The position numbers were made by a program, and so were the translations under genes. The notes under the pieces are model-generated. The model had not been told where the DNA came from. It made no database searches and saw nothing but the letters and a program-made list of their open reading frames with translations. Source: Candidatus Poseidoniaceae archaeon (GTDB lineage: Archaea; Thermoplasmatota; Poseidoniia; Poseidoniales; Poseidoniaceae). From it: a stretch of DNA of 64,000 bases. How positions within the stretch are numbered: the first letter of the stretch is position 1; each line of letters starts with the position of its first letter. The stretch spans positions 67-64,066 of the forward strand of contig DAIUCF010000003.1 in the NCBI GenBank assembly GCA_036846305.1, in the 5' to 3' direction. Below are positions 4,901-47,780 of the stretch, one piece after another.

Positions 4901-5714
4901 TCCATGAACTGGATTCGTTAAATTTCCAAACTTGGTGGGGCGGCACCCACGGCGGCAGAGTTTCTTGTGATACATATTCCCAATCTCCGTCAAGTAGATG
5001 CGAACCATGGAAGCCAAGACGGAATGAGCCGGGGGTACACAATTGATGTATCGGCCGTATTGATGCAACACACTGGAGAAATGTTCGCTCGACTTCGGTA
5101 TAGTCAGGAGCAGCGTCGAGCACGATGAGGCCTTGTACATCATTGAGGGTGAATGGAGCAACATCCATCTCTTGGAATTGTTTGATCAAAAAGGGCAAAG
5201 CATGGTGAATATGTGTTCCGCCGAGTTGCTCCCCTACCTTTTTCAAAATCAAATCAAATTCCTTTGCCCCAGGATCATTCTCCCAAACCCATGGATTCTT
5301 GATTTCGGATAGTGCGCCATGCAATGATAGCAATCGTTCGGTTTGGTAAGGCGTCCATTGTCGTTGATTCTGAGGTGAAAAAAGCAAGGGTAATTCTCCA
5401 GACTCTGCCGCTTTCTTCGTACGGGCATGAATGGCAAGAAATAGACCGGCGTTGTCCTGCATAAGTGAGGGGAGACCGGTGTCTAGAATCATCAGTGAGA
5501 TAAAACGTTGAAGAGTGAGATGATGTGTCGTATCTATTGGAACATTCAAACCAGCAAGGCGATGTAATGATTGGCTCCTACTCGCCTCATTTGGATACAA
5601 AAGAACGTAGTTGTCGCATTGGCCATCGCACAAACTTCGGAAAAGCCATTCCGGTATATTTTGGCCCGGTGGGACTGCTTCAAGAGTTATCTCTGGTATT
5701 CTATTTTCGTCCAT
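1983..5714 (-). CDS. AddB-like subunit: degenerate helicase-like N-terminal region plus C-terminal PD-(D/E)XK (RecB-family) nuclease domain
   Basis: 1243-aa ORF with no Walker A near the N-terminus. The C-terminal third carries ordered RecB-nuclease motifs: SPSRIQSWLECPRLAW, RGRIDRVD, VIRDLKT, VQLSLYA. The gene order (this gene, then the AddA-like helicase, with overlapping stop/start) mirrors bacterial addB-addA. Confidence 0.7.
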   Translation of the reverse strand: MDENRIPEITLEAVPPGQNIPEWLFRSLCDGQCDNYVLLYPNEASRSQSLHRLAGLNVPIDTTHHLTLQRFISLMILDTGLPSLMQDNAGLFLAIHARTKKAAESGELPLLFSPQNQRQWTPYQTERLLSLHGALSEIKNPWVWENDPGAKEFDLILKKVGEQLGGTHIHHALPFLIKQFQEMDVAPFTLNDVQGLIVLDAAPDYTEVERTFLQCVASIRPIHQLCTPGSFRLGFHGSHLLDGDWEYVSQETLPPWVPPHQVWKFNESSSWRSPLSFERNTSYHRITVNRRAHSINAAFEILHEYRQSVNGEVIIIDGAADSNQRMWNSRLQTLGYLTGSEKQTLEHIPSLAGLTLLMKIGDGLEAWSIDKLKSLFENQSLPLPNGGVGELQHPKNSEWHPRPHIHVLENIARTFHVRGGQGALRRWLSTLSNVTPQLGSNRERALQELEETQWWLCCVAQLWHPLLDKNSQEALDAELIGCSSGEKLPTPLRPKDGFMWLDTILSKLDWTLLQRRTVGHDRSIAGLQHLRESHKSTQNTLEKANLSVPSNGQDFIGYIEHLLKHTTLPRTRNRSRQIQILKPEEAHGVEADLFLLVGLDVGSWAMKSPKVPWLDAQAKLRLGMLHSDLTIRKGRHHLRHLLNAGKTVIVFDSSKEEGGGPSAPLAEWFTELRQAGEITLLQKPPDFLPESTHQSGNLNRSWHWTSDESGEVWLTPRPFTMTSQDGIISAERAGHRPRDQRQRLGLALRDGSQITGSVLSKNSVAMAHEVPVQLDRFHRQPSHKNLQKNEYLSWHLRKYLLSTDGLNLRPKKSQVLLGSNQHEVWPNLGMKGSRGNGPAIDPRPLPPYNMKSETLNSVMGFSSPIKVDIWSPSRIQSWLECPRLAWMKNHLKAQAQESQSEDLDHRTRGTILHDAEASILRYHGVPTATSPIDKPLPLNQTDFEQLWQSVLEFLKSEVSWLKRDDAIAVHRCREMLGVTPEVWRDYIEGVSEISCGGRIGRMLLSDYSLTHAAPIACEYGIGLDGKSPILLDACNDNGQSSPFKIRGRIDRVDQIVLDPHQREKAVADGVLSKEPVSQPMPLNSGPVPSANRLVVIRDLKTVNGPKAGEKGDRHRRGLFDEVQLSLYARSWELAFPGDRVVGIGVTEIGESTAHYLEMDQSVSKYLQDAEIGEQTFYSQKLHRYPESESTEINGFRALIAERLRTSNRAINAANSGQVNSTPGRHYSYSSIRLVYPEKFGGNA

Positions 5715-19405: not shown

Positions 19406-20455
19406 ATGAGGTATGGAGGAATGGGTATTCACATGCCGAAGCATGCTTTCTCTCCAATCAAAGGTTCGCTTGAACGATGGACTTTGAATTCACAGTTGCT
19501 TGAAAACAGATTAGGGGACCCTACCGAAAGAGAAATTCTAACTCATATTGCCCCCGAAGGACTTGAAATGATTGAACAGGGTGGCAAACTTCCAGTTTTG
19601 ATTTATTTAGCTCCTTTTACTTCTTCAGGGCCTGCTCGTGCTGGATGGAAAGCATTCGCAGAAACGCTTCCGCAACGGCATGAACGGTTGGTGAAGTCCG
19701 GCAAGATGAAACCTGCAATTTTAGTCATGCCAGATACTTTCACGACGCTTGGAGGAAACCAATTCGTTGATTCGCCCGTATTAGGCCGATGGTCATCATG
19801 GCTATCACAGGCGCTCAAGCCGGAAATCAAAACGCGGTATTCGACCAACGGAAAATTCGCCTTGATTGGGAAATCCTCGGGAGGATACGGAGCGCTAGTC
19901 AACGCAATGCTTCAGCCCGAGCAATGGGATGGGATTGCATGTCATTCAGGAGATATGGGTTTTGAAACAATGTTTCTGCCAACATTTGCTGAGACACTTA
20001 CCCATGTTGGAAGATATGGTGGAGCGCCACAATATGTCGATTACATCAGAAATGCTGAGCGCATGTCTGGCTCAGACTTCCACACACTCATGATTTGTGC
20101 AATGGCGGCATCGTATGACCCACGTAGACCAACTCAGGACAATCCCTTGGGAATTGTTTTGCCAGTGGAGTCAAAAACCGCTGAAACCCATTCCGATGCT
20201 TGGAGTCGCTGGATGAGTTTTGATCCGCTGACAATGGTTGAAGAGAAACATGAGGCCCTAAGAAAACTCAGCGCACTCTTCATCGATTGTGGTGGGCAAG
20301 ACCAGTATCATATTCAATATGGGAGCCGACGATTTGTATCTCGTCTGCTCTCGATGGACGTCCCTCATAGTTGGGAAGAATTCGCAGGAACCCACTCAGG
20401 AATCGACCACAGACTTGACTTGAGTTTTGCTTACTTAACAGAAATGTTGAGTTGA
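19406..20455 (+). CDS. Alpha/beta-hydrolase, putative esterase family
   Basis: KLPVLIYLAPFTSSG and the nucleophile-elbow-like LIGKSSGGYGALVNAM (GxSxG). Length is 349 aa. Confidence 0.55.
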   Translation: MRYGGMGIHMPKHAFSPIKGSLERWTLNSQLLENRLGDPTEREILTHIAPEGLEMIEQGGKLPVLIYLAPFTSSGPARAGWKAFAETLPQRHERLVKSGKMKPAILVMPDTFTTLGGNQFVDSPVLGRWSSWLSQALKPEIKTRYSTNGKFALIGKSSGGYGALVNAMLQPEQWDGIACHSGDMGFETMFLPTFAETLTHVGRYGGAPQYVDYIRNAERMSGSDFHTLMICAMAASYDPRRPTQDNPLGIVLPVESKTAETHSDAWSRWMSFDPLTMVEEKHEALRKLSALFIDCGGQDQYHIQYGSRRFVSRLLSMDVPHSWEEFAGTHSGIDHRLDLSFAYLTEMLS

Positions 20456-21646: not shown

Positions 21647-24316
21647 TTACTCTGCAGGTTCTTCGGCTGCAGGTTCTTCGGCAGATTCTGCAACATCGGA
21701 TGCTTCTGCATCATCTTCGTTCATCATCTTAATTGCCATACCCAGGCAGCCTATTGCTCCGATTAGAAGAAGTGGGGCTAGGTAATCAGTACCGACGTCA
21801 AAGTTTGTCCAGTACGTCAAAGCCTTTTGATTGGTCGTTACACTGGATGCAAGTGTTTCGGCATCATCGTCTGAAATTTCAGAACTGGATTCAATGGCAA
21901 ACACTGCTTGCAAATCGCTTGCAACAGGAGCAGTGTGCTGATCGGTGATTGGTCGCATGTCCAACCAGAAGGTCGACTCTGAAGAGCCTGCGATGATTGC
22001 CCCACTAAGTTGCTCTGCTTGCAAGGTCACTTCACTTCCAAAGTAAACTGGGAGTGCACCAGGCACTGCATCAAGCAGTGTGTCAGTATCCAAAAGTTTG
22101 GCTTGAATTGGGCGAGTCAGTGGGTCTAGAGATGCTGAACAATCATCGACTGCAATGTCCTTTAAAGTCGAAGTTCCATCACAAGAGATTGCTGCAGTTG
22201 CATATCCTGAAAGGTCAACTAAATCGCCAGATCCAGTCAAGAAACCACCGGTGGTATCGGTTCGAGATTCTGCGGTAATGAGGCCAAAGGTGTTCTGCAT
22301 CTTCATTGGGTCCTTCCAAGAGAAGTACGAACTGCCGTCAACAGCCATCATCTCGCCTTTATCGCAAGAAGCATTTTCACCGGTACAAATCATGTAATCA
22401 GTTCCAGTATCACTGACAATTCCTCCAGAACCGTAGTATGTCGCATTGGATTCAAGACTGGTCCATCCAACGGTCATGTCCATTGGGTTACCTGTAGCCA
22501 AGAAAGCTACAACAGGGTCGTGCCATCCGAGCAACCAGTTGTTAAATTCTTGAGTCAGGTATGGAGTTGTTCCAAACGAACTGATTAAGAAGTCAGGTAC
22601 GAAATCACCAAAAATTGGTGATGACACAAAGAAACTCAATGCATCGGCTGCGTTTGCATCAATGCCGTACAAAGCGCCAATTGTAGCGTTATTCCAAGGC
22701 ATTGGCTCAGCAGCCTCCATTGTGGCGAGATTGATTGGTGGCGTCATACCGCTCAATTCACCGTACATGAACAGAGTAGCACCTGTTTGAGTCGTTATAC
22801 CTAGAGGGCCGTACAAGATGTTTGCAGCCTGTGATTGGTTAATGGAAACAGGAGTAGCTCCTGCATGACCTGGAATCATACCAGCGCCCCATGCGCCACC
22901 AATGTTGAGCGAATTGTTGAGGTAAGGGCTGCCTACTGGACTCATACCACCGAACGTTTGGTTGACAAATTGCTGAGCATTCATTGTGCCAACACCGCCA
23001 AGAAGGCCAAGTTGAGCAGAAGAGGTGGATAATGCCCATCCAGCTGCCCAAGCAGCGGTTGCATTGTATTGGTCTAGGGTAAGATTGAATGCAGTCATAG
23101 CATCTGTAACTCCCATTCCTAGGAATGCCGCCAGACCGAATCCTGTTCCATCAGCGTTAGTAGCAATCAAACCAGTTGGAGTGGCTGTTCCGTGTCCTGC
23201 TCCCATGAGAGCAACGCCGTTAGCACCGGCAAAGTCGACGCCCAAGAGATTGTGGAGTCGGCTTGTGATGTCATCGTTATTGGTAGCATTGAAGGCTGTA
23301 CCACCGCCGTAGCCGGCGAAACTTGTCCCAACTGCTGCATACATGGTCCAATCTCGAACGAATGTCTTATGGAAGTCTGGCATTGTAGCATTGGCCATGG
23401 CAAGGTAACCATAGGTGGTGGCTCGAGCCATCACGGTGGAGTTCGATGGGTCTGCCATAACTTGGGAGACCAACATTTCTGGTTCGCCCATTCCAATGAA
23501 AGCAACAGAGCCGAGTGGTTCCATCAACGAAATGTTGAAGTTTGCATCAAAGGGATGGAAGGTGTTTGTCATTGCTGCATCCAAATCTCCTGATTGCCAA
23601 TCTCCTAAAGTGGCGTTAAGCGTAGAGTCGTTGTTTGCTGCCATAATGCCCATCCCCGTAGTGGAGGACTTCCATTGACCTTCAGCACCGTCAGCCCATG
23701 TGTGGCACGGAACTGATACCATGCCTACGAGCAGAACGGGAACTTTGCAGAGGTCACCGGTTGTAGCGGTTCCTGCTTGTGTGGTATTCATGTCTTGGTT
23801 GATCATTTGTGCAGCGAATCCAACCTTGGTCAAATCCATGATTCCATTGATTGCCATACCGGTAGCGCCAATCACTTGCGGGGTGAAACCGATGTTGAGT
23901 TGAGTGATTTGAACGTCACACGGAACTTCGGTGTCTGCTGAACATGCATAGGAGGTGTTCTCGTGATAGGTGATGGTTCCAGCATCTGAATCGTGAGATG
24001 TAAAGGTACGGTCAGAAGTAATGGTGTAAGTGACCGGTCCAATTTTTTCATGGGTTGGGGCGGTTCCGTTTGCCATCACATCATCGACATTGGTTACGGT
24101 CCATCCGTAGAAATCTCGGTCGGTTGTTGAAGTGGCCCAGTCTGGATTGATATCTGTACAATCTGAGTTTTCACAAATATCGTCTAACGGTTTGGTCTTT
24201 GTCGCTTCGAGAACTGCGTCTTCAACACCGCCAGTAGAAAGCACTGAAAGGCCTCCACTCAGCAGTATAAACACAAGTCCTGCAGCTAGCATCGTTTTAT
24301 CTGTCATCATTGACAT
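21647..24316 (-). CDS. Double-TM (N- and C-terminal) surface protein with a CD36/LIMP-2/SCARB-like ectodomain and a large insertion. The family assignment is tentative.
   Basis: TM at aa ~9-27 and TM near the C-terminus (LAPLLLIGAIGCLGMAI), then an acidic tail. Segments resembling my recollection of CD36-family signatures occur in the same order: FYGWTVTNVDDVM...GPVTYT; NWLLGWHDPVVAFL; LPVYFGSE; TFWLDMRPITDQ; LTYWTNFDVGTD. That this is a real CDS is high confidence (~0.85). The confidence given here refers to the family call. Confidence 0.5.
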   Translation of the reverse strand: MSMMTDKTMLAAGLVFILLSGGLSVLSTGGVEDAVLEATKTKPLDDICENSDCTDINPDWATSTTDRDFYGWTVTNVDDVMANGTAPTHEKIGPVTYTITSDRTFTSHDSDAGTITYHENTSYACSADTEVPCDVQITQLNIGFTPQVIGATGMAINGIMDLTKVGFAAQMINQDMNTTQAGTATTGDLCKVPVLLVGMVSVPCHTWADGAEGQWKSSTTGMGIMAANNDSTLNATLGDWQSGDLDAAMTNTFHPFDANFNISLMEPLGSVAFIGMGEPEMLVSQVMADPSNSTVMARATTYGYLAMANATMPDFHKTFVRDWTMYAAVGTSFAGYGGGTAFNATNNDDITSRLHNLLGVDFAGANGVALMGAGHGTATPTGLIATNADGTGFGLAAFLGMGVTDAMTAFNLTLDQYNATAAWAAGWALSTSSAQLGLLGGVGTMNAQQFVNQTFGGMSPVGSPYLNNSLNIGGAWGAGMIPGHAGATPVSINQSQAANILYGPLGITTQTGATLFMYGELSGMTPPINLATMEAAEPMPWNNATIGALYGIDANAADALSFFVSSPIFGDFVPDFLISSFGTTPYLTQEFNNWLLGWHDPVVAFLATGNPMDMTVGWTSLESNATYYGSGGIVSDTGTDYMICTGENASCDKGEMMAVDGSSYFSWKDPMKMQNTFGLITAESRTDTTGGFLTGSGDLVDLSGYATAAISCDGTSTLKDIAVDDCSASLDPLTRPIQAKLLDTDTLLDAVPGALPVYFGSEVTLQAEQLSGAIIAGSSESTFWLDMRPITDQHTAPVASDLQAVFAIESSSEISDDDAETLASSVTTNQKALTYWTNFDVGTDYLAPLLLIGAIGCLGMAIKMMNEDDAEASDVAESAEEPAAEEPAE
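21652..21681. repeat. Exact 15-bp tandem duplication at the 3' end of the CD36-like gene
   Basis: CTGCAGGTTCTTCGG occurs twice in tandem (21652-21666 and 21667-21681), encoding the C-terminal ...EPAAEEPAE. Confidence 0.9.
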
Positions 24317-24346
24317 AATTCTTCAATGCCAACCCATAGCACATAA

Positions 24347-24362
24347 GTGTTGGCGCCAACAC
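24347..24362. promoter_or_regulatory. Perfect 16-bp palindrome in a divergent promoter region (candidate operator)
   Basis: GTGTTGGCGCCAACAC lies between the start of the CD36-like gene (24316) and the trm1 start (24451). It is immediately followed by the AT-rich TATA-like stretch TAGTATAATTGGCATATATATTG. A second near-palindrome, AACCGATTTAATCGGTG, lies at 24403-24419. Confidence 0.4.
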
Positions 24363-24450
24363 CTAGTATAATTGGCATATATATTGAATTTCAAGATTAG
24401 CCAACCGATTTAATCGGTGTGGTCTTCAAGTTGAAGCGGTACGGGAGGAC

Positions 24451-26622: not shown

Positions 26623-29600
26623 TCATTCTTCCCAAACTGCCCAATCTTCCCAGCCTTCTTCACGGTACCACCAAACGCCTTCGTCATCTTCCCACCATTC
26701 AGTACCGTCATCATCGACAGAGATGTTATCATCTGCATCATCAGATTCTTCAGAATCTTCAGAATCTTCGGTATCAAACGATTCTTCAACCTCGGTTTCC
26801 GATTCTAAGTCAGATTCATCATACTCTTCGACTTCTCCCCTTCCATCCACTTCGTCAAACAAGGAACGCCGACGCTCTGCTGGAGGCTCACCCGCAACAA
26901 AATCATCGCCTGAGGATTTGATTTCATCGAGGCTTCTACTTGACCGAGGTGCAGGTTTTGCAACGACATCATCATCATCGTCGTCGTCGAATTCATCGAA
27001 CCAATCCTCATCTTCTTGACGAGGACGCAAGAGAACAAACGCTGCACCAGCGCCACCCAGTACGAGTAGAGCTATGATTCCGCCAACAAGAGCCCCTGAA
27101 CCTCCTTTTGATTCATCATTAGAAATATCGTCATCGTCAGAATCAACTTGAACCAACATCTCGCCGAGAGTCCACTGAATCTCGCCTTCGGAACTGGCGG
27201 AAGGAGCGGTCATGTTTGCACACCGACTCGTTCCATCGTCCAAACAGGTGAGTTGAAGCACATATCCCACGCCTTGCATTCCAGGAAATAGGCCGTCAGA
27301 AGGACCATTACGAACTGGAGTAAATTCAAACTCAAGAGTACCGTTTGCAAGCATGGTGATGAGCGTTCCGTTGCTAGGCAAAAGAGAGGATTCGAAGGAA
27401 ATTGGGGGGGGCGTGGTTGGAATAACTTTCCAGGAAAAACCAACTTGCACTTCGAATGGATTCGGATTGGTGAGGGTACAAGCAATTGCGGTATCGGTTC
27501 CGTTGTCTTCCCAAGCATATGAGGTGCTCTGACACACAATCGTACCCGGCAGAGTAGCATCTGGGAACGGAGGTAGAACAGTTGTATTGTCAGTTTGGTT
27601 TTCGGACTCATTCGTTGTCTGGTTATCTGTTAGATTCACATGTGTATTACCAAAACTAAACACGATATTGGTTGTTGAAGGGGAGTACCAATCTTGAGAA
27701 TCAGATGGATAAATGGTCAGAATATCATGAGCATCTGCTTGTCCAGTTAGCGAAATTTTGCCTCCTTTCACTTCGATGGTACCAGAGTCGGAAACATTTC
27801 CGGATTGATTTGCTATTTGCCACTCATAAGCGATGTTTGCGAGTAGGATGTTTTGGGATGGCAATTCTGGCGTCAATGTTGCCTCGGCAATGAAGAAGCC
27901 GCTCTCATTTAGGTTCAAAGTTGAGGTTGGTTGAGTTATTGTGGTTCGCAGGAGCCCCATGCCGGTGATGTTCAATGACGATGGAAGTACCGGCTGAACT
28001 GTGGCTGAACTAGAAACTCCCGAATAGGAGACGCTAATCGTAATCTCACCAATAAAGCCCGAAAATGAGGCAGATAATTCAGTTAAATCTTCGACCCCAA
28101 TTGCATACCATGTTCCGTTTGAATCCGTCGCCCCATCCACGTTGTAGTTGAGATTTTGTCCAGTCATAGTTAGCGAGAGATTCTGAGATACAAGAGGCGT
28201 TGCTCCACTGGAGAGGGTTACGTTAAGATGGAGAGAGTCAAGTGCGCTCATTTCAAAGTAAGTAGAATTTGAAAATCCAGATGTTTCGATTGATAAGGAC
28301 AGTGATGATGTTCGAATCGAATTGTTGACGGTATAAGCCGGCCCGAAAGACGAATATTGCGATGAAGTGTTACCGTATTCATCGTAAGCTACGACTGAAA
28401 CCCAATAGGCTGTACCACCTTGTAATAGCGTGCCGTTACCGTCACTTGCGAACGTTGCAGAATAATTACCTGTAAAAGCAGGTATCGTAGCTACTTCAGA
28501 ACGGTTCTCTAAAGAAAGAATTTCAGTGGTTTCGATGAATACCTTGTAATCTTGAGTTGCGTCTATCGATGCATTCCAGCCGATGGTCAGCGAACTACCG
28601 TTGTCTAGTGGCGTATCAAGAACTGTTAACCCTGTAACTGGAGCAGGAGGCGCCGGATAGGGTGCGGTAACCGTCAAACGAGATGACAGGTTACTGGTAA
28701 CGCCAAACGTATGAATTGAGCGTACTGAATAATCATATGTTTCTCCAGAGACGATGTTGGTATCTTCAGTGTCATTAAACGGGGTGGTCAGCAACGGGGT
28801 GTTGAGATCAAAAGCATCGCCTGTGTCGGTCTTAAATACCTCGAATTCAATAACATCCGTCCCGAATTCGACTATATCTTGCCACGAGAAGCCAATATAC
28901 TCGTCTGTGAGTGTATCCAACTGCAATATCGGCTCTGGAGGTAAGGCGAGGTTTGGTGCGCCCGGAGTATAATCGGCATTCAGATTTGAGAGTTTGATTG
29001 TTCCATTTTTTGTTGAATTGAACGGTAAATCGATGAGGATATTGCCGGTTCCTGCAGTCTGTAATTGGTTGATAACATTCGCAAGATTGCCTGAAGCCGC
29101 AGGGTTTGTGTCTACAAGGAATTCAACATCATAACCAAAATTTAAATCGCTAAGATTGAATGACCCGTTTCCAGTATTAGTGAAATTGAAAGATAAGGTA
29201 TTCATGTAAACCCCGTAATCCATCGGTATAAGATTTGAACCTACCATCAATGGTGAGAGAAGCGTCTGAATCAGGCCGACTGTGTCGTTAAACAACAACG
29301 GCCCTACACCATTTTGCCCGTCTCCAGCATACCCCTCAGCAAACAAATCGTACTGCCCATCAAGGTCAACATCCATTTGTATCGATGCCTGTGAGCCGAT
29401 AAACAGACCAACTGAATTCGCTTCTCCAGCAGGTATGATGTGTTCGACTAATCCATCAGAATCCATATCCGAAAACAAAGAGTTTGATGGACAAGTCCAT
29501 GGTTCTAGGGAAGTCGTTGTTACACTAATCGATGTTAACGAAATATTATACAGTGTTAAATTGCCATCTTTAGTTAATGCATTTCCGTCGCAACTTGAAA

Positions 29601-30918
29601 TATCAGGGAGAATTAAAGAAAGCGCTCCATCGTTGTCGTGGTCAGCAAGAGTCGCGTCAGTAAAAATCAGGTTTGACAGTGCTGAAGTCGTAATCCATGT
29701 CGTACCGTTGTTATCAGCAATGGTATATCCGGTAGTCGTTGGAGAAAACAAATCGATATCTCCGTCGTTATCAATGTCGCCTTTAAGAATCTCTGAACCC
29801 ATTTGATCAAAACTATACCCTTCAACAAGCAAGCCTCCATTTTCCCACACCACACGACTTGCGTGCCCGAATGAATCAACAACCACTATCGAATAATTAC
29901 TGTTAGGGCCATTGAAATAATCTCCCACGATGGCGTTCAGTTGAGCTGGAGACGTTGTCCCATTTTCATTGACTGTCAAAGTGACATTATCAAGGAATGT
30001 GTTCGACTTCGAAAGAAATTCCCTGTAAGATGTGACCCCGTTTTCATGAATTGAAATAACGTCATCATCCCCGTCGTTGTCAATATCGCCCACGGTAGCC
30101 GAAAGAAGATTTCCATAAAGCGAAATGGGCGTCGCATTACCAAGTCTGCTTGAATTTACATCATACAAGTGGAGGCATATTCGGTCATCTGCGGGGGCTA
30201 CCGAAATAACATCTGAATAGTTGTCGGCGTTAAAGTCGCCAACTGAAATTGATGTTGCTGTACCGCAGGTTGGAACCCATGAAGAAATATTTAGTCCAGA
30301 TGAGGAGTTGTAATCTACAACTGAAATTGCTGATTGGTATCCCGTTGTCGATTGGTCTAGAGAGAAAACAATTACCTCTTCCAATGTATCGTTATCAATA
30401 TCGGATAATTCAAATGCAGTAAGGGTGCCTGTAGGTAACAATCCTGCTGGGATTTCAGTTGTAAAAGAGGCATTAATTGATGCACTGCCCAAAGTTGAAT
30501 TAACTGGAATGTAAAACGGCGACGATGATGAATTTCCCGTGGAGAGGATACTCTCGACTGAATTGTTGTTAGCAAACACTGTTTGAATTCCTAAATCCCC
30601 AAACCCTTGACCTTCGTATGCCCACTCTTTTGTGCCGTCTTGATTGATATCAAGAAAAACTTGCCCGGGAGTAGACAATTCTTCATTAATTTCGAGAACA
30701 AATTCAGCATTTTGGAAGGTAACATTTCTTGGAACTTCAAGTGAAGCATTCGTGTTTGTTTGTTGTGCGACAAGAGGGATTGTTAGGGCAGCGCTACCGT
30801 TAGAGAAGAGGTTTACAGTGCCGGCCTGCCCATTCGCACTTGCTGAAAGCATAGCCCCTGATTGAGCAAATACTAGGAAAAAAAGTACGAGGATTGTTGA
30901 TGTTCGATTCGTAGCCAT
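26623..30918 (-). CDS. Giant surface protein: signal peptide, FG-GAP/VCBS-type repeats, Fn3-like domains, one TM, and a ~150-aa hyper-acidic cytoplasmic tail
   Basis: Signal peptide MATNRTSTILVLFFLVFAQSGAMLSASA. FG-GAP-like Ca loops VGDFNADNYSDVISV, VGDIDNDGDDDVISI, KGDIDNDGDIDLFS, DHDNDGALSL, DMDSDGLVEH. Fn3-like segments (FSWQDIVEFGTDVIEFEVF..., LTIGWNAS...YKVF...YWVSVVAYDEYGN). TM GALVGGIIALLVLGGAGAAFVLL. Dense N-x-S/T sequons. Confidence 0.75.
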   Translation of the reverse strand: MATNRTSTILVLFFLVFAQSGAMLSASANGQAGTVNLFSNGSAALTIPLVAQQTNTNASLEVPRNVTFQNAEFVLEINEELSTPGQVFLDINQDGTKEWAYEGQGFGDLGIQTVFANNNSVESILSTGNSSSSPFYIPVNSTLGSASINASFTTEIPAGLLPTGTLTAFELSDIDNDTLEEVIVFSLDQSTTGYQSAISVVDYNSSSGLNISSWVPTCGTATSISVGDFNADNYSDVISVAPADDRICLHLYDVNSSRLGNATPISLYGNLLSATVGDIDNDGDDDVISIHENGVTSYREFLSKSNTFLDNVTLTVNENGTTSPAQLNAIVGDYFNGPNSNYSIVVVDSFGHASRVVWENGGLLVEGYSFDQMGSEILKGDIDNDGDIDLFSPTTTGYTIADNNGTTWITTSALSNLIFTDATLADHDNDGALSLILPDISSCDGNALTKDGNLTLYNISLTSISVTTTSLEPWTCPSNSLFSDMDSDGLVEHIIPAGEANSVGLFIGSQASIQMDVDLDGQYDLFAEGYAGDGQNGVGPLLFNDTVGLIQTLLSPLMVGSNLIPMDYGVYMNTLSFNFTNTGNGSFNLSDLNFGYDVEFLVDTNPAASGNLANVINQLQTAGTGNILIDLPFNSTKNGTIKLSNLNADYTPGAPNLALPPEPILQLDTLTDEYIGFSWQDIVEFGTDVIEFEVFKTDTGDAFDLNTPLLTTPFNDTEDTNIVSGETYDYSVRSIHTFGVTSNLSSRLTVTAPYPAPPAPVTGLTVLDTPLDNGSSLTIGWNASIDATQDYKVFIETTEILSLENRSEVATIPAFTGNYSATFASDGNGTLLQGGTAYWVSVVAYDEYGNTSSQYSSFGPAYTVNNSIRTSSLSLSIETSGFSNSTYFEMSALDSLHLNVTLSSGATPLVSQNLSLTMTGQNLNYNVDGATDSNGTWYAIGVEDLTELSASFSGFIGEITISVSYSGVSSSATVQPVLPSSLNITGMGLLRTTITQPTSTLNLNESGFFIAEATLTPELPSQNILLANIAYEWQIANQSGNVSDSGTIEVKGGKISLTGQADAHDILTIYPSDSQDWYSPSTTNIVFSFGNTHVNLTDNQTTNESENQTDNTTVLPPFPDATLPGTIVCQSTSYAWEDNGTDTAIACTLTNPNPFEVQVGFSWKVIPTTPPPISFESSLLPSNGTLITMLANGTLEFEFTPVRNGPSDGLFPGMQGVGYVLQLTCLDDGTSRCANMTAPSASSEGEIQWTLGEMLVQVDSDDDDISNDESKGGSGALVGGIIALLVLGGAGAAFVLLRPRQEDEDWFDEFDDDDDDDVVAKPAPRSSRSLDEIKSSGDDFVAGEPPAERRRSLFDEVDGRGEVEEYDESDLESETEVEESFDTEDSEDSEESDDADDNISVDDDGTEWWEDDEGVWWYREEGWEDWAVWEE

Positions 30919-34804: not shown

Positions 34805-35989
34805 TCACTCATAGGCAATTTCAGTCAATTTTGGCACCATGATCGTTACAATCACTGTTAGAGTCCAATCGTTGCCTGGGTCGGGGTCAGGGGTTCCTTC
34901 GAACAGCGGATCCGGGTCAGCCTGTTGTGCTGTAACTGACCACATCCATGCTCCTTGACCTTTACGTGAACCGGTTGAGGATAAAAGCTGTTCAAGTAGA
35001 ATCTCGGCTGAATCTGAGTCATAAATTCCATCCTCGCCCTCAGAATTCATTCCATCCAATTCTAGAGAGGCTGAGGCAGTTTCATTTGCGGTTAAATTTC
35101 CACCTTCGGTTTGAGCTGTTCTCTCATAATTATCGTTTGATATCAAGAGTGACAGAGTGAAATTATCTTGCGGCGCAAGCACGTCCTGTTGCAACTCCAA
35201 AACTCCTTCATAGGAAATGACTCTACCCATTTCTCCCGGGGTAATATTGCCTTCCCATTGCTGGCCCTGATCAAGGTATTCATCCCAAGAAAACTCAAGT
35301 TCAGTGGACTCCCATGTAACTTCGAAACGCCTCGGGCTGATCTCCAAAGTAAAGAGTTCAGTTACCGAAAATTCTGCAGAATCAATGACAGTAAGGCTGC
35401 CTTGCACAGTTCCAGAGCGGTTTGTGGGAAGTAGCACAGTTTCCGTAGATGCATCAACATCGTTACGGGCATCGCCATCGCCATCTGTATCATCTCCCCA
35501 GTTCAAATCCCAGTTGAACTGTAAAGTATCCCCTTCGGGGTCGAAACTCTTGCTCGCATCCAACAAAACTGAGTCTCCGGAACGGATTGAATTTGGGTAT
35601 GTAAGATTGAGTTGTGGGGCGCCGTTAACAGTGATGGTGGTGGTTGCTCGGTCTTTTCCACCTTGGTCGTTGATTACAGTCAATTCAACAATAAACATTC
35701 CAAATATGGAGTATCGATGTGAAGTAAAACCTGTCGTCGTCTCAGAAGTTTGTCCATCGCCAAAGTCCCATAAAAATTGGGTAATAACTCCTTCAATTGG
35801 TTCGGAATCTCTTGCATCAAAAGTGACGGTCTCACCCTCTTGGATTTGAAGTGGATATGCTGTCATATTGGCACGAGGATCGACTGTGAATTCGAGTGCC
35901 CCCGTGCAACCAGCAACCAAAGTCGAGCAAATAAGAAGCCCAACCATGAACAAGGAATGCAGTCTTTGACCACTAACCTTCTGCCACAT
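34805..35989 (-). CDS. Secreted (lipobox-like) protein with two PKD domains
   Basis: Signal/lipobox-like LLICSTLVAGCTG. PKD signature FDARDSEPIEGVITQFLWDFGDGQTSETTTGFTSHRYSIFGMFIVELTVINDQGG. Second PKD LDASKSFDPEGDTLQFNWDL. Confidence 0.75.
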   Translation of the reverse strand: MWQKVSGQRLHSLFMVGLLICSTLVAGCTGALEFTVDPRANMTAYPLQIQEGETVTFDARDSEPIEGVITQFLWDFGDGQTSETTTGFTSHRYSIFGMFIVELTVINDQGGKDRATTTITVNGAPQLNLTYPNSIRSGDSVLLDASKSFDPEGDTLQFNWDLNWGDDTDGDGDARNDVDASTETVLLPTNRSGTVQGSLTVIDSAEFSVTELFTLEISPRRFEVTWESTELEFSWDEYLDQGQQWEGNITPGEMGRVISYEGVLELQQDVLAPQDNFTLSLLISNDNYERTAQTEGGNLTANETASASLELDGMNSEGEDGIYDSDSAEILLEQLLSSTGSRKGQGAWMWSVTAQQADPDPLFEGTPDPDPGNDWTLTVIVTIMVPKLTEIAYE

Positions 35990-37486: not shown

Positions 37487-38200
37487 CTATCGTTGTGGAG
37501 AAAGGGCTTGGGCCACCAAAACCAAGTGTTTCATGATGTGAATTATCTCCTCGGGCGAGCGACTAACCGTTCGTAGATGCGCTTGAACCATCGTATCAGT
37601 AATTCTCAAGGTGGTGCGTTGATGTAATGCTTGTTGAGCAGAATATATGGCCATTTTTCGTTCGGGTGTTAGGAATTGAAAAACCTGGTTTGGATTCATT
37701 CCTTGGATGTGAAATTGTTGATCAAACACAGAATCATTAATTTGAATATCATGATTTCCGACCAACCCTGAAAACATATTCAATAGGGCAATTTGAGGCT
37801 TAATCTCAAGCCCCAATTGGAGAGGATGAGGATGATAAACTTCGAAAAAAGATTGTACCCTCGAGGCTCTCTTGCCGCCACGTATGACTTTGAGCCATAT
37901 GCGGCAGTGGAATTGATGAATTTGGCCGGTTATTGAGGGGAAGCCATGACTGAAACCTCCGAACCGGAACTCGTATTTTTTAGGTGGAGGTACATACTGA
38001 AGCTCAAGTTTGTGTGCTAGGAATTGGTAATCCTGCTGGAGTTTCGAATGGTAATAATGCGATGCAAGTAAAAAGAAAATGAAGACTCCTAATGGAATTG
38101 AAAGAAAGAAAAAAACAACAGTTACCAAACCTGCCATGTTCTCCACATCATTCTTTATGAAACTCAATGCCATCTGGGATTGGACTCCAAGGTAAAACAT
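37487..38200 (-). CDS. Hypothetical protein with one N-terminal TM
   Basis: 237-aa ORF with TM LVTVVFFFLSIPLGVFIFFLLA. The track start overlaps the upstream nuclease gene by 53 nt; an in-frame ATG at 38137 would remove the overlap. Confidence 0.5.
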   Translation of the reverse strand: MFYLGVQSQMALSFIKNDVENMAGLVTVVFFFLSIPLGVFIFFLLASHYYHSKLQQDYQFLAHKLELQYVPPPKKYEFRFGGFSHGFPSITGQIHQFHCRIWLKVIRGGKRASRVQSFFEVYHPHPLQLGLEIKPQIALLNMFSGLVGNHDIQINDSVFDQQFHIQGMNPNQVFQFLTPERKMAIYSAQQALHQRTTLRITDTMVQAHLRTVSRSPEEIIHIMKHLVLVAQALSPQR

Positions 38201-39341
38201 CGCACCAGTGGCCGATTCTCCATGACCGGCTCTGAGTCATAACCGAACCGAGAAACAATGGTCCCTGATGGCCAGATGCCAAAACCTCGTCAAGGGCTTC
38301 TTTGCCTCGATTGTCAAATCGGGCGGATTGACGAATCCCTGTAGGCATTGCGCGCCCTTTTTCATCAGCAGGCTCACACAATTCCAATACAGCTGACCCC
38401 GTCGAATCGTCGTATTCCTGTAGTAATACGACGGCATCCGAAAAATCACCTTTGTGTAAGCTTCCGTTCTGATGGCGCCAATTCCACCAGTGCGGGCACC
38501 AGGCTTTCCAATCACAAAAACCACCACAAGAGGATTCTCCAATTGTCGGGTCCATTGGCATAGAAGTGGGGACTGTTGCCTGCCATGCTGCATATGCCTG
38601 CTCCAGAACATTGTCACCCTGTGCTGCCCATTTCGAGGAATTCTGCGTATACCAGCCTTCAGTACGGACATTTGGTGCATTCGGATTATTGGCCAAAAGA
38701 ATATCTCGATACATTCGTAACTGGCGGTTTACATCGGTCTTGAGTTCGTTCTCTGGTGTTCTACCCGTCTTCAAATCCGCAACCAACCAACCAATCAATT
38801 CGCCTTCTTCGTTAATATCTCCCATCAACAGGTCAAGCCTTCCCATCAAGCGCCCGTCAGAAGTTTTCAATTCACCTTCTACGGCAATGGCAAGTTTTTG
38901 TACGCGACGCCAAAGCGCACCTGTTACACGTTCTTGGGCCAGACTACGTACACCAACATGGTCTAGAAGCATCATGACGGCCCCCTTTTGATTACGAACT
39001 GCTTCTTTCCATTTGTCTTCCTTCCACTGAGGGCGACGGGGTGTTGCCAAAAATATCGCTTTTTCTTCCTCCCAGCGGGATTTCAAAACTCGTTCAGCAA
39101 ATTGCATGAACCATCCACTTTCTGCGTCGCCTACATGCGAGATATCATGGAGCAAGAGGTCTTCTACTGAAGCATGCACTGCTGTTCCTAAGGACGCAGC
39201 CATTCCGGCCTTGCGTGGTAACCTTTGCCGGCTTAACCAGTACATTCTAGGGCATGTTTCAAATCTATTCCATGCAGAAGGAGAGAGCGAATGTGGGCGA
39301 ACATCCGTTGAAGATTGGTCCGCCATAGAACGCCCTTGCAT
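38148..39341 (-). CDS. Cas4-like / RecB-family PD-(D/E)XK nuclease with four-Cys cluster and a C-terminal extension
   Basis: LSPSAWNRFETCPRMYWL (first Cys), GRLDLLMGD, LVADLKTGR, QLRMYRDIL, then CGGFCDWKAWC (three C-terminal Cys). About 100 further residues are of unknown fold. Confidence 0.75.
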   Translation of the reverse strand: MQGRSMADQSSTDVRPHSLSPSAWNRFETCPRMYWLSRQRLPRKAGMAASLGTAVHASVEDLLLHDISHVGDAESGWFMQFAERVLKSRWEEEKAIFLATPRRPQWKEDKWKEAVRNQKGAVMMLLDHVGVRSLAQERVTGALWRRVQKLAIAVEGELKTSDGRLMGRLDLLMGDINEEGELIGWLVADLKTGRTPENELKTDVNRQLRMYRDILLANNPNAPNVRTEGWYTQNSSKWAAQGDNVLEQAYAAWQATVPTSMPMDPTIGESSCGGFCDWKAWCPHWWNWRHQNGSLHKGDFSDAVVLLQEYDDSTGSAVLELCEPADEKGRAMPTGIRQSARFDNRGKEALDEVLASGHQGPLFLGSVMTQSRSWRIGHWCDVLPWSPIPDGIEFHKE

Positions 39342-40772: not shown

Positions 40773-41923
40773 TACTCCCCACCCCCATATTTCCCTGCTA
40801 AGTATTCATGACCGTACCATCTCCATTGATCTTCATTCCATCCTTCTGGTAAACCACCTTCGGGCAGAGGTGCGATTGATTCATCACTGTTCGAGGCGGA
40901 GATAATTTGGCCATCCTCGTCGACTGGTTGTTCTGGTAAAACAATTTGTGATTGCTCATATTTGTTCTCTGGGAACGAAGTATTCAGACGAGATTGTAGA
41001 GCGATAACTGCTCCAGCAATCAAAAATAAAAGAGCAAACGATTGGGCATATACTGCAAATTCTTCAACCTCCCAACCCGGTTCTTCCGATGCAAGCGTGA
41101 ACCAAGGAGTTGTTTGAGTGGGGCCTTCGCCTTGCAACACCGCCCTCCACTGAACGGTTGTCGGTTGCAATGCAGCAGGAAGAGTCGCCGTCCACATGTC
41201 GGTACCCGTTGAATTGACCGGAACTGACACCAATGTACCGCCAGGAACTTGCCATTCAATCTGTACGGATTCTGTAAATTGTGTTTGGATGTTCAGTTCG
41301 GTTTCTGCTCCTAAAGTCCGAACTGTCGGCGGAATATAGTCGGATGAAAGGCGCGGGAGGTTTTCGGGTACGGCTTCAACATCAACGGCCAACCCTTCTG
41401 GATTTATTCCGAAAAACGGAGTTGATTCCCCCCCATGATGTATTGAGCCGTAGAACAACGTCGTACCCATATTCGAGGAACGAACAACCCACGACACTGA
41501 AGTTTCATTCATACCCGATGGTATTGTACGTTCAATGTAATTCATCGACCCGCCATTAGAATCGGATAGAATCTCCCAACCAGCATCTTGAGGTGTGTCA
41601 GAATGCCCTGTTGTATCGGTCAACAAAAACAGTCCAATAAGGCCTGTTTCGCTCGATTGAATATTGGAAACAGAAAGAGTGATTGTGGTTGGTATGCCGG
41701 CATATATTTTTTCAGAGGATGATAACGACATTAGGGCAGTGGAGGTTCCGTTCAGTGAAGCATCTCCATGACAAGCGCCGCCGCATTGCATATCTCGAAT
41801 AGAGTCGCCGTTCCCACCCGGTTCTGCTGAGCCAAAACTCGAACAAAGCAGGAGCATTGAGAGCAGTATAACCGAGCATGTTCTTTGAATAAAACTCAAT
41901 TCAATCCCTCCGAACAAAGGCAA
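40772..41923 (-). CDS. Secreted, C-terminally TM-anchored protein with an N-terminal Cys-x3-Cys-His domain
   Basis: Signal peptide CSVILLSMLLLCSSFGSA, then MQCGGACHGDASLNG...TTITLSVSN...GLIGLFLL. C-terminal TM LLFLIAGAVIAL. Cytoplasmic tail ending GWNEDQWRWYGHEYLAGKYGGGE. Confidence 0.6.
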   Translation of the reverse strand: MPLFGGIELSFIQRTCSVILLSMLLLCSSFGSAEPGGNGDSIRDMQCGGACHGDASLNGTSTALMSLSSSEKIYAGIPTTITLSVSNIQSSETGLIGLFLLTDTTGHSDTPQDAGWEILSDSNGGSMNYIERTIPSGMNETSVSWVVRSSNMGTTLFYGSIHHGGESTPFFGINPEGLAVDVEAVPENLPRLSSDYIPPTVRTLGAETELNIQTQFTESVQIEWQVPGGTLVSVPVNSTGTDMWTATLPAALQPTTVQWRAVLQGEGPTQTTPWFTLASEEPGWEVEEFAVYAQSFALLFLIAGAVIALQSRLNTSFPENKYEQSQIVLPEQPVDEDGQIISASNSDESIAPLPEGGLPEGWNEDQWRWYGHEYLAGKYGGGE

Positions 41924-47141: not shown

Positions 47142-47780
47142 CTACTCTTCCTCTCCGAAATAGGCTGATGGTTCATCCCAAGGATGTTTCAAGTCAAGAG
47201 CGAGTTCAATTTTTGAACGGGCGATAGAAAGATCGTTTTGAGAACCACCTAATGGCAATGGACCGAAGATCCCCCATCCTTTACGAAGAAGCATGATGCG
47301 GCGCGCAGGTTGTCGTCGTTGGAGACGTAATCTCCTCCAATCGTAACGCTGACCGTCAGCAAAGAGATGCGTTCGAGTAACTGCAAATCTTTTCGGTATG
47401 AGAAGTGATATTAGGTGAAGAGAAAGGAAAGCGTCCCAGATTATCGCGTACCAATAACTGGTATCAGAGGCCCCAAGAAGGGCCCAAGGTAATGCCATCA
47501 TCGCCGCCATCGACGCGAGATTCCCCCACTGACGTATCACCTCTTGAGGACCTTCGCTCGTCCAAGCAAAACCGCCATTTGGCAATTCCCCGAGATGAGG
47601 TATGTCCTGACGCTGACGCGTCAACCAAAAGGCATCCCATGCAACAATTGCTCCAAGGACACACACGGCTATTAGCGCCGCTGTATTAGCTGACATCAAT
47701 ATTTCCTGTGCCAAATACTCCACCTCAAAGGTGCCGCTCATCAATCGAGGTGGAATCATCCCAATTCTTTTCCCCACCAC
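47142..47780 (-). CDS. Hypothetical membrane protein (3-4 TM) with a basic C-terminal domain
   Basis: 212-aa ORF. The track start overlaps the upstream giant gene by 56 nt; the in-frame ATG at 47696 (MSANTAALIAV...) avoids the overlap. Confidence 0.5.
   Translation of the reverse strand: MVGKRIGMIPPRLMSGTFEVEYLAQEILMSANTAALIAVCVLGAIVAWDAFWLTRQRQDIPHLGELPNGGFAWTSEGPQEVIRQWGNLASMAAMMALPWALLGASDTSYWYAIIWDAFLSLHLISLLIPKRFAVTRTHLFADGQRYDWRRLRLQRRQPARRIMLLRKGWGIFGPLPLGGSQNDLSIARSKIELALDLKHPWDEPSAYFGEEE

What the first reader, a model, noticed from the sequence alone, without database searches (positions are those of the whole stretch)
21647..24316. Archaeal protein with CD36 / LIMP-2 / SR-B1-like topology and signature segments
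The 889-aa ORF has the hallmark CD36-family topology: one TM at each end, a large ectodomain and short cytoplasmic tails. Five segments match, in the same order, what I recall as the most conserved blocks of animal CD36/SCARB proteins.
- FYGWTVTNVDDVM..(11)..GPVTYT versus FWIFDVQNPQEVM..GPYTYR
- NWLLGWHDPVVAFL versus ELLWGYRDPFLSL
- LPVYFGSE versus PVYISLPHF
- TFWLDMRPITDQ versus TYLDIEPITGF
- LTYWTNFDVGTD versus ILWLNETGTIGD
A Gly/Ala/Thr-rich insertion of about 400 aa separates the first and second blocks. As far as I know the CD36 family (lipid-tunnel scavenger receptors) is regarded as essentially eukaryotic. An archaeal member would bear on the origin of the family and on lipid or hydrophobic-substrate uptake in a planktonic heterotroph.
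Basis: partly seen in the sequence, partly recalled or inferred. Interest (0 to 1): 0.72.

Follow-up and report, generated by a model that had tools for sequence, protein, structure and literature searches.

The report
Archaeal CD36-family surface protein
A marine planktonic archaeon (Marine Group II / Poseidoniales) encodes a true relative of the animal CD36 / LIMP-2 lipid-tunnel receptors, carrying a large extra "head" domain; the family is treated in the literature as eukaryotic, so this bears on its origin and on how these archaea may take up lipids.

Summary
The finding holds. The 889-aa ORF (21647-24316, minus strand) has one hydrophobic helix at each end. It passes Pfam CD36 (PF01130) at 52.6 bits against a cut-off of 26.5, as do ten divergent relatives.

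A confident AlphaFold2 model (pLDDT 82.6) matches only LIMP-2 and CD36 in the PDB at E < 1e-3, over about 300 columns. The next matches are mycobacterial LmcA. Profile comparison supports homology in both halves of the domain.

The "Gly/Ala/Thr-rich insertion" (aa 189-553) is a conserved, confidently folded, mostly helical head domain with no Pfam or PDB relative. It sits where eukaryotic CD36 proteins carry their ligand-binding apex.

The gene is not a contaminant. It lies between archaeal housekeeping genes in a gene order shared by 27 Poseidoniales assemblies. The family has 322 loci among GTDB species genomes, with several paralogues.

NCBI already auto-labels some members "CD36 family protein", but I found no paper describing archaeal members.

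The most likely function is transfer of hydrophobic ligands (fatty acids or lipids) between the outside and the membrane. That part is inferred, not shown.

The parts
21647..24316 (-). Complete gene for the 889-aa CD36-family protein (stop codon included)
   Evidence: ORF list; PF01130 at 52.6 bits, E 3.5e-14; a database protein differing at 3 residues (L195P, F839L, G842P) was found and used for modelling
24227..24295 (-). N-terminal hydrophobic helix (aa 8-30), predicted membrane anchor; signal-peptide cleavage is not excluded
   Evidence: Kyte-Doolittle scan; AF2 helix 6-38; aligned with the CD36 N-terminal TM segment by hhalign
23888..24199 (-). N-terminal half of the CD36 beta-barrel (aa 40-143), with the FYGWTVTN...GPVTYT signature
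   Evidence: Pfam stretch aa 60-180 = profile 43-158; hhalign probability 96-97%, E 1.8e-9 and 1.4e-11; long strands E62-74, E89-109, E114-125
23753..23887 (-). 45-residue helix (aa 144-188) leading from the barrel up into the head; position of the CD36 apex helices
   Evidence: AF2 secondary structure H144-188; hhalign aligns aa 153-184 with CD36 143-170
22658..23752 (-). Family-specific head domain (aa 189-553): mostly helical, Ala/Gly/Thr-rich, inserted at the apex; hypervariable stretch around aa 195-245
   Evidence: pLDDT about 85-94; conserved in all paralogues; no Pfam or PDB sequence relative; hhalign against CD36 is at null level; lowest conservation at 201-240
22574..22657 (-). Returning long helix (aa 554-581) from the head to the barrel
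   Evidence: AF2 H554-581; aligned with CD36 143-176 by hhalign
21827..22573 (-). C-terminal half of the CD36 barrel (aa 582-830), with the motifs NNWLLGWHDP, GALPVYFGSE, FWLDMRPIT and the last strand plus helix AVFAIESSSEISDDDAETL
   Evidence: Collinear hhalign to CD36 143-439, score 34.0 against shuffles of at most 23.1; Foldseek alignments of about 300 columns to LIMP-2 must include this half; most conserved region of the family
21782..21826 (-). Conserved juxtamembrane motif (aa 831-845, ..LTYWTNFDVGTDY); no counterpart in the CD36 alignment
   Evidence: W836, N838, F839, D840 and D844 nearly invariant; lies outside the hhalign alignment; low pLDDT at 828-840
21719..21781 (-). C-terminal transmembrane helix (aa 846-866)
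   Evidence: Hydropathy; AF2 helix 842-871
21650..21718 (-). Short acidic, poorly conserved C-terminal tail (aa 867-889), presumed cytoplasmic
   Evidence: Sequence; 19% mean identity across the family
24317..24450 (.). Intergenic region shared with the divergent trm1 gene. A CCAACnnTTATG element about 24-37 nt upstream of the ATG (roughly 24340-24353) is conserved in orthologous loci and is a likely BRE/TATA promoter.
   Evidence: Sequence; comparison of upstream regions in 15 orthologous loci. The promoter role is inferred.

Best explanation
The gene encodes a genuine, highly diverged member of the CD36 / scavenger-receptor class B family in a Marine Group II (Poseidoniaceae) archaeon.

Architecture (shown or modelled): one helix at each end anchors the protein in the cytoplasmic membrane. 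Between them, outside the cell, sits the asymmetric CD36 beta-barrel. Two long helices rise from it, at the position of the eukaryotic ligand-binding apex, and carry a 365-residue helical head domain found only in this archaeal family.

Mechanism (inferred): CD36, LIMP-2 and SR-BI pass fatty acids, sterols and phospholipids through a hydrophobic tunnel to the membrane. Mycobacterial LmcA/PgfA has a similar barrel and binds a glycolipid. By analogy, the head would capture a hydrophobic ligand and the barrel would hand it to the outer face of the membrane. The ligand is most probably fatty acids or other lipids from particles or algal exudates, which then feed the fatty-acid degradation pathway that all Poseidoniales genera encode.

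Status of each step: family membership, fold and topology are shown. The tunnel, the ligand and the direction of transfer are inferred.
For: Homology:
- PF01130 at 52.6 bits (cut-off 26.5), E 3.5e-14. Ten divergent members score 29-68 bits.
- hhalign N-half against CD36/LIMP-2: E 1.4e-11. C-half: collinear, score 34.0 against 12.2-23.1 in 30 shuffles.
- Positions invariant in both families coincide: GP.TY, G[WY].DP, P[VI]Y, D..P.T.

Fold:
- AF2 model with pLDDT 82.6 and pTM 0.73.
- All 12 PDB matches at E < 1e-3 are LIMP-2 or CD36. The best is E 1.6e-6, about 300 of 390 residues.
- The next matches are LmcA at E 0.02-0.07; every other target is at E 0.95 or worse.

Topology: two terminal hydrophobic helices, and 10 ectodomain Cys in five near pairs.

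Native archaeal gene:
- Housekeeping neighbours.
- Conserved gene order in 27 of 80 loci.
- 322 loci in GTDB species genomes; the best 80 are all Poseidoniales, including single-cell genomes and the CM001443 MG-II genome.
- G+C content like its surroundings.

Functional context:
- Fatty-acid degradation is a core MGII trait, and neither MGII paper read mentions CD36 (PMC6461757, PMC6336850).
- LmcA/PgfA shows the fold handling lipids in a prokaryotic envelope (PMC8972800, PMC9678360).
- Apex expansions built of helices are common in non-metazoan SR-Bs and are linked to ligand specificity (PMC10715195).
Against: - No ligand, tunnel or transport was tested.
- The TM-score to LIMP-2 is modest (0.42 normalised to the target), and the C-half sequence signal is weak taken alone (hhalign E about 1e-3).
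- None of the gene neighbourhoods contains lipid-metabolism or transporter genes; all are housekeeping, so context gives no functional support.
- The metazoan disulfide positions are not conserved.
- The head domain has no known relative, so its role is open.
Confidence: 0.6

Rival explanations
1. It is a CD36-family protein that works outward. Like mycobacterial LmcA/PgfA, it would take lipids or lipid-linked molecules from the cytoplasmic membrane and hand them to the cell envelope (S-layer anchoring, glycolipids, surface structures), rather than importing nutrients.
For: LmcA is the only other prokaryotic structure matched by the model (E 0.02-0.07). It acts in lipoglycan and mycolate trafficking from the inner membrane (PMC8972800, PMC9678360). 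The gene is a core housekeeping-context gene with several paralogues, as expected for envelope biogenesis. Poseidoniales are predicted to make unusual mixed membranes (PMC6461757).
Against: The archaeal family is much closer to eukaryotic CD36/LIMP-2 than to LmcA: Pfam PF01130 is hit and nothing from the DUF3068 family appears even at E <= 10, and Foldseek gives E 1e-6 against 1e-2. These archaea have no outer membrane to supply. The head has a hypervariable stretch, which fits recognition of varied external ligands better.
Confidence: 0.15
2. It is mainly a surface receptor or adhesin. The head domain would bind particles, prey or host cells, polymers or a partner protein (as LIMP-2 binds glucocerebrosidase and CD36 binds many macromolecular ligands). 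The barrel would be only a scaffold, with no lipid conduction.
For: Eukaryotic family members are multi-ligand receptors that bind through the apex (PMC10715195). The head is large, family-specific and variable over aa 195-245 among paralogues. Some natural members lack half of it: P0127 and P0145. The window is rich in giant surface proteins with FG-GAP and PKD domains, and MGII are thought to attach to particles (PMC6336850).
Against: The barrel's C-terminal half is the most conserved part of the protein, which argues that the barrel has a function of its own. There is no adhesin-type domain or repeat. The cytoplasmic tails are very short, so there is no signalling module.
Confidence: 0.2
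3. The resemblance is not homology of a native gene. It would be either chance or compositional similarity, or a eukaryotic gene on a contaminated or chimeric contig.
For: Only the N-terminal roughly 120-150 residues give strong sequence scores. The C-terminal part alone gets no Pfam hit. Direct phmmer against PDB sequences is only E 0.48.
Against: Pfam is well above threshold in 11 of 11 members tested. The fold search is exclusive to the family. The C-half beats all shuffles. The gene is uninterrupted, has local G+C content, and sits in the same archaeal gene order in 27 independent assemblies. The exhaustive search of 1.84 billion representatives listed only family members and fragments among its best 150 hits, so there is no recent eukaryotic donor.
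Confidence: 0.02

Closest known systems
Human LIMP-2 (SCARB2), CD36 and SR-BI: class B scavenger receptors, Pfam PF01130
   Same: One TM helix at each end with short tails. The same asymmetric beta-barrel: all Foldseek matches at E < 1e-3. Shared signature positions GP.TY, G[WY].DP, P[VI]Y and D..P.T in the same order. Apex helices emerge at the same point of the chain.
   Different: About 12-18% identity. The ectodomain is about 810 aa instead of about 400, because a 365-aa head domain sits where the three-helix apex bundle is. The metazoan disulfide cysteines are not conserved; there are five other Cys pairs instead. There is an extra conserved juxtamembrane motif (YWTNFD). The host is an archaeon with no endomembranes, lipoproteins or phagocytosis.
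Non-metazoan SR-B proteins with expanded apices (e.g. Phytophthora, Tetrahymena, Dictyostelium LmpA), described by Boohar et al. 2023 (PMC10715195)
   Same: A conserved barrel plus a lineage-specific, multi-helix expansion at the membrane-distal apex that lacks homology to known domains. Ectodomain lengths of 413-2294 aa bracket the archaeal one.
   Different: Those are all eukaryotic. Whether any of their expansions is related to the archaeal head could not be tested, because no protist sequences were obtainable. The exhaustive profile search listed no non-family protein matching the head among its best 150 hits.
Mycobacterium LmcA / PgfA (MSMEG_0317, Rv0227c; DUF3068/PorA family)
   Same: A prokaryotic, membrane-anchored, extracytoplasmic elongated beta-barrel with internal cavities. 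It was published as structurally similar to CD36/LIMP-2 and as lipid-binding (PMC8972800, PMC9678360). It is the only non-CD36 structure matched by the model.

Membership tests
CD36 / scavenger receptor class B (Pfam PF01130) | Significant match to the PF01130 profile above its curated gathering score | tested here: met
   52.6 bits against 26.5, E 3.5e-14. The N-terminal 218 aa alone score 41.3 bits. Ten divergent family members score 29.3-68.1 bits.
CD36 / scavenger receptor class B (Pfam PF01130) | [quoted passage not shown] | tested here: met
   The only two hydrophobic segments are aa 8-30 and 845-865. Both are modelled as long helices. Prediction only; cleavage of the first helix as a signal peptide is not excluded.
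CD36 / scavenger receptor class B (Pfam PF01130) | Asymmetric antiparallel beta-barrel fold of the ectodomain | tested here: met
   AF2 pLDDT 82.6 and pTM 0.73. Foldseek against the PDB: all 12 matches at E < 1e-3 are LIMP-2 or CD36, best E 1.6e-6, probability 1.0, about 300 columns, TM 0.42 on the target.
CD36 / scavenger receptor class B (Pfam PF01130) | Homology over both halves of the domain, with the conserved N- and C-terminal strand motifs in order | tested here: met
   N-half hhalign E 1.4e-11. C-half collinear alignment aa 558-830 to CD36 143-439, score 34.0 against at most 23.1 in 30 shuffles and 14.6 reversed. The C-half signal is weak taken alone.
CD36 / scavenger receptor class B (Pfam PF01130) | Three-helix bundle at the membrane-distal apex | tested here: inconclusive
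   Two long helices (144-188 and 554-581) occupy the positions of the apex helices, but a 365-aa head lies between them. Model coordinates could not be inspected. Comparable expansions occur in non-metazoan members.
CD36 / scavenger receptor class B (Pfam PF01130) | Continuous hydrophobic tunnel through the barrel, and lipid binding | not testable with these tools
   No access to model coordinates for cavity analysis, and no biochemistry.
CD36 / scavenger receptor class B (Pfam PF01130) | Ectodomain disulfides of metazoan CD36 (a metazoan feature, not family-wide) | tested here: not met
   In the hhalign alignment, the archaeal Cys at 644/651 and 712/726 do not align with CD36 cysteines. The archaeal Cys are not invariant across paralogues.
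LmcA / PgfA (DUF3068, PorA family) | Sequence match to the DUF3068 family; distribution in Actinobacteria | tested here: not met
   No such Pfam hit even at E <= 10. All identified hosts are Poseidoniales archaea. There is only a weak structural match, E 0.02-0.07.

The most novel reading that the evidence does not exclude
The Poseidoniales CD36 proteins may be an ancient prokaryotic branch of the family rather than a side-show. With the LmcA-type barrels, they would show that the lipid-tunnel scavenger-receptor architecture predates or parallels eukaryotes.

At least one paralogue may import carotenoids or retinal for proteorhodopsin. From established knowledge, animal class B scavenger receptors (NinaD, Santa-maria, SR-BI, CD36) import carotenoids for visual chromophore production. 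Most MGII lineages carry proteorhodopsin but lack the beta-carotene cleavage enzyme (PMC6336850). Such a paralogue would explain where their chromophore comes from.
Probability: 0.12. Interest if true: 0.9.

Novelty: new variant of a known kind. Interest (0 to 1): 0.62.

Why it matters
Origin of the family: the CD36/SR-B family is studied as a eukaryotic invention traced to the last eukaryotic common ancestor and linked to phagocytosis. The latest survey sampled eukaryotes only (PMC10715195). A sequence-detectable, multi-paralogue clade found across both families of one of the ocean's most abundant archaeal orders gives that question an outgroup, or an ancient transfer partner, that can be tested by phylogeny.

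MGII biology: these uncultured archaea are predicted to live on proteins and fatty acids, yet the two MGII genome papers I read do not mention this family. This protein is a concrete candidate for lipid (or chromophore) acquisition, and it could be tested in a heterologous host.

Structure: the 365-aa head is a new domain placed exactly where animal receptors recognise their ligands.

Tried and rejected
- A first AF2 run with 35 close orthologues (at least 62% identity) gave an unusable model (pLDDT 50.6). Adding relatives down to 27% identity fixed it.
- Searching the large protein collection with a 64-aa LIMP-2 fragment returned only exon-sized fragments. Searching with a CD36 + LIMP-2 profile returned only mammalian proteins. 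No protist or other prokaryotic CD36 sequences were obtained, so no cross-domain phylogeny could be built.
- The C-terminal 335 aa alone gives no Pfam hit. Direct phmmer and profile searches of PDB sequences are only marginal (E 0.48 and 0.011).
- NCBIfam gave nothing.
- The head domain has no Pfam or PDB sequence relative, no internal repeats and no structural match in the PDB or BFVD.
- No relative is encoded on IMG/VR viral contigs.
- Gene neighbourhoods gave no functional clue. Three recurrent contexts are all housekeeping.
- A perfect 16-bp palindrome upstream of the start (GTGTTGGCGCCAACAC) is not conserved as a palindrome in orthologous loci, so I dropped it as an operator candidate.
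- Literature searches for CD36 with archaea, Marine Group II, Poseidoniales or Euryarchaeota found nothing relevant.
- Rejected readings: contamination, chance similarity, and LmcA-family membership. Reasons are given under the rival explanations and the membership test.
Full report
**1. The observation**

The ORF 21647..24316 on the minus strand is real, starts with ATG and encodes 889 aa. A hydropathy scan finds only two membrane-type segments, aa 8-30 and 845-865. It also finds ten cysteines in five near pairs between them and 17 N-X-S/T sequons. The window has uniform G+C of about 0.43-0.50, and the gene does not stand out.

The flanking genes are archaeal housekeeping genes:
- GatE
- a single MCM
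- a putative esterase
- PurM
- Trm1
- a PAC2 proteasome-assembly protein
- a 1431-aa FG-GAP surface protein

The gene converges with purM at its 3' end and diverges from trm1 at its 5' end, so it is transcribed on its own.

**2. Sequence-level family assignment**

Pfam CD36 (PF01130) is hit at 52.6 bits, E 3.5e-14, against a gathering score of 26.5. The best stretch is aa 60-180 on profile positions 43-158 of 463. The N-terminal 218 aa alone give 41.3 bits. The central 366 aa and the C-terminal 335 aa alone give nothing. NCBIfam has no model for it. Direct sequence searches of the PDB find only LIMP-2 and CD36, but marginally (E 0.48 for the single sequence, 0.011 for a profile).

To test the C-terminal half, I verified human CD36 and LIMP-2 sequences against PDB chains and ran profile-profile comparisons.
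- The N-terminal part (aa 6-184) aligns with CD36 8-170 at 96-97% probability, E 1.8e-9 to 1.4e-11.
- The C-terminal part (aa 558-830) gives one collinear alignment with CD36 143-439, E about 1e-3 and score 34.0.
- Thirty column-shuffled versions of the same profile score 12.2-23.1, the reversed profile 14.6, and the head domain 17.0.

That alignment makes these pairings:

| Archaeal segment | Human CD36 segment |
|---|---|
| NNWLLGWHDP | RELLWGYRDP |
| GALPVYFGSE | GRPVYISLPHF |
| FWLDMRPIT | TYLDIEPIT |
| AVFAIESSSEISDDDAE | ILWLNETGTIGDEKA |

The fifth (LTYWTNFDVGTD, aa 833-844) is a conserved juxtamembrane motif specific to the archaeal family and has no CD36 counterpart in the alignment. 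Positions invariant in the archaeal family (G93, P94, G597, D600, P756, Y758) fall on positions invariant between CD36 and LIMP-2.

**3. Structure**

- With only close orthologues the AlphaFold2 model was poor (pLDDT 50.6).
- With an alignment reaching 27% identity (A2) the model is confident: pLDDT 82.6 and pTM 0.73. It was built on a database protein that differs from the window ORF at three residues.
- Foldseek against the PDB gives 12 matches at E < 1e-3, and every one is LIMP-2 or CD36. The best is 4f7b, E 1.6e-6, probability 1.0. About 300 aligned columns cover LIMP-2's roughly 390 residues, with TM 0.42 on the target.
- The next four matches are Mycobacterium smegmatis LmcA (E 0.02-0.07). 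Every other target is at E 0.95 or worse.
- About 300 columns cannot come from the N-terminal 150 residues alone, so the C-terminal half is part of the structural match (inference).

The order of elements matches CD36:
1. TM helix.
2. Long strands at 62-74, 89-109 and 114-125.
3. A 45-residue helix (144-188).
4. The head (189-553).
5. A 28-residue helix (554-581).
6. The remaining strands of the barrel (639-813).
7. A short helix (816-827).
8. TM helix.

The head is modelled with pLDDT around 85-94 and is mostly helical. It has no internal repeat, no Pfam or PDB sequence relative and no structural match in the PDB or BFVD. I could not inspect coordinates, so the existence of a tunnel is untested.

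**4. The family and its hosts**

The word-indexed search found 340 relatives. The best 120 are 62-100% identical, about 860-910 aa long, and nearly all carry a precomputed PF01130 hit. They come from Euryarchaeota and Poseidoniaceae MAGs.

An exhaustive HMMER search of 1.84 billion cluster representatives found only 191 hits at E <= 1e-3. The 150 listed are family members or fragments. Full-length members are 843-969 aa, and two natural variants lack half of the head (P0127 and P0145). Ten divergent members all pass the Pfam threshold.

In one genome per GTDB species, 322 loci encode a relative. The best 80 are all Poseidoniales (MGIIa and MGIIb), including single-cell genomes and the original MG-II genome CM001443. 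The deepest clades carry Thalassarchaeaceae labels, and NCBI already names one member 'CD36 family protein [Candidatus Thalassarchaeum sp.]'.

Twenty-seven loci share part or all of this window's gene order (FG-GAP, PAC2, Trm1, CD36-like, PurM, esterase, MCM, GatE). Other copies sit in two further recurrent contexts, both housekeeping:
- Fpg, fibrillarin, Nop56 and PCNA
- PheRS and pyruvate kinase

Three assemblies in the sample carry two copies each, and a distance tree shows several deep clades. So this is an old, multi-paralogue family across the order. It is not a contaminant and not a recent transfer. No relative is on viral contigs.

Within the protein, the C-terminal barrel half is the most conserved part. 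The TM helices and tail are the least conserved, along with a stretch around aa 195-245 of the head.

**5. What is known**

The most recent evolutionary survey of the family searched 165 eukaryotes only. [quoted passage not shown] It reports repeated, lineage-specific, helical expansions of the apex with no known homologues, giving ectodomains of 413-2294 aa (PMC10715195). The archaeal protein fits that description in everything except its host.

Full-text searches pairing CD36 with archaea, Marine Group II, Poseidoniales or Euryarchaeota found no paper on archaeal members. The two main MGII genome papers do not mention CD36. They report fatty-acid degradation as a trait of all genera, and note that most MGII lack the beta-carotene cleavage enzyme needed for retinal (PMC6461757, PMC6336850).

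**6. How it most likely works**

Shown: family membership, fold, predicted topology, and native archaeal origin.

Inferred: the barrel sits on the outer face of the cytoplasmic membrane, held by its two helices. The head, raised on two long helices at the site where animal receptors recognise ligands, captures a hydrophobic molecule. The barrel then passes that molecule to or from the membrane, as in CD36, LIMP-2, SR-BI and, more distantly, LmcA/PgfA.

Import of fatty acids or lipids to feed beta-oxidation is the most economical reading for a particle-associated heterotroph. Paralogues with different head stretches would have different ligands.

The rivals are outward lipid delivery to the envelope, a pure receptor or adhesin role for the head, and (as a special case) carotenoid or retinal import. 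Gene context does not discriminate between them.

**7. Verdict**

This is a new archaeal variant of a known family. Automatic annotation has already flagged it, but it appears undescribed in the literature. It is of real interest for the origin of the CD36 family and for Marine Group II physiology. Confidence is about 0.95 for homology and about 0.55 for a lipid or hydrophobic-ligand transfer function.

Noticed in passing
window 26623-30918 (-), 47725-52428 (-), 54738-62900 (-), 41901-44435 (-), 34805-35989 (-): The window holds several very large predicted surface proteins: 1431 aa with FG-GAP repeats and an acidic C-terminal tail after a TM segment, 1567 aa, 2720 aa, and an 844-aa and a 394-aa protein with PKD domains. 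This fits the particle-attachment lifestyle proposed for Marine Group II. The 1431-aa gene is part of the conserved gene order next to the CD36-like gene.
   Followed up: partly
window 44492-46645 (-): A bacterial-type NAD-dependent DNA ligase (LigA: adenylation, OB, HhH and BRCT domains) is encoded in this archaeal genome.
   Followed up: no
window 1-5714 (-) and 38148-39341 (-): Large ORFs with PD-(D/E)XK nuclease domains (1243 aa and 397 aa), the first preceded by a 661-aa ORF that runs off the window start. These may form an AddAB-like helicase-nuclease pair.
   Followed up: no
window about 24340-24353 (minus strand), upstream of the CD36-like gene: An element CCAACnnTTATG lies about 24-37 nt upstream of the start codon. 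It is conserved in most orthologous loci and is a likely BRE/TATA promoter with a short leader. In this window it is part of a perfect 16-bp palindrome, GTGTTGGCGCCAACAC, which is not conserved elsewhere.
   Followed up: partly
window 19406-20455 (+): A 349-aa 'putative esterase' (PF00756, the family that includes mycolyltransferases and esterase D) lies two genes from the CD36-like gene and keeps that position in 26 loci. It has no obvious signal peptide, and no functional link was established.
   Followed up: no
proteins P0127 (619 aa) and P0145 (730 aa): Two family representatives keep both barrel halves but lack roughly aa 158-399 or 181-367 of the head. This suggests the head has two modules, the first of them dispensable. 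I did not check whether these are genuine genes or assembly artefacts.
   Followed up: no
protein P0032 and MCH2637922.1: Public records already label some members 'CD36 family protein'. One sits under the organism name 'bacterium', which is probably a mis-binned or unclassified MAG label, because the protein is 78% identical to this Poseidoniaceae protein.
   Followed up: no
locus L083 9324-17374 (relative P0134, Thalassarchaeaceae): In this MGIIb contig the CD36-like paralogue lies next to a xanthine-dehydrogenase-type molybdoenzyme operon, an HTH_10 regulator and a 1287-aa protein with no Pfam hit. This context differs from all the others.
   Followed up: no
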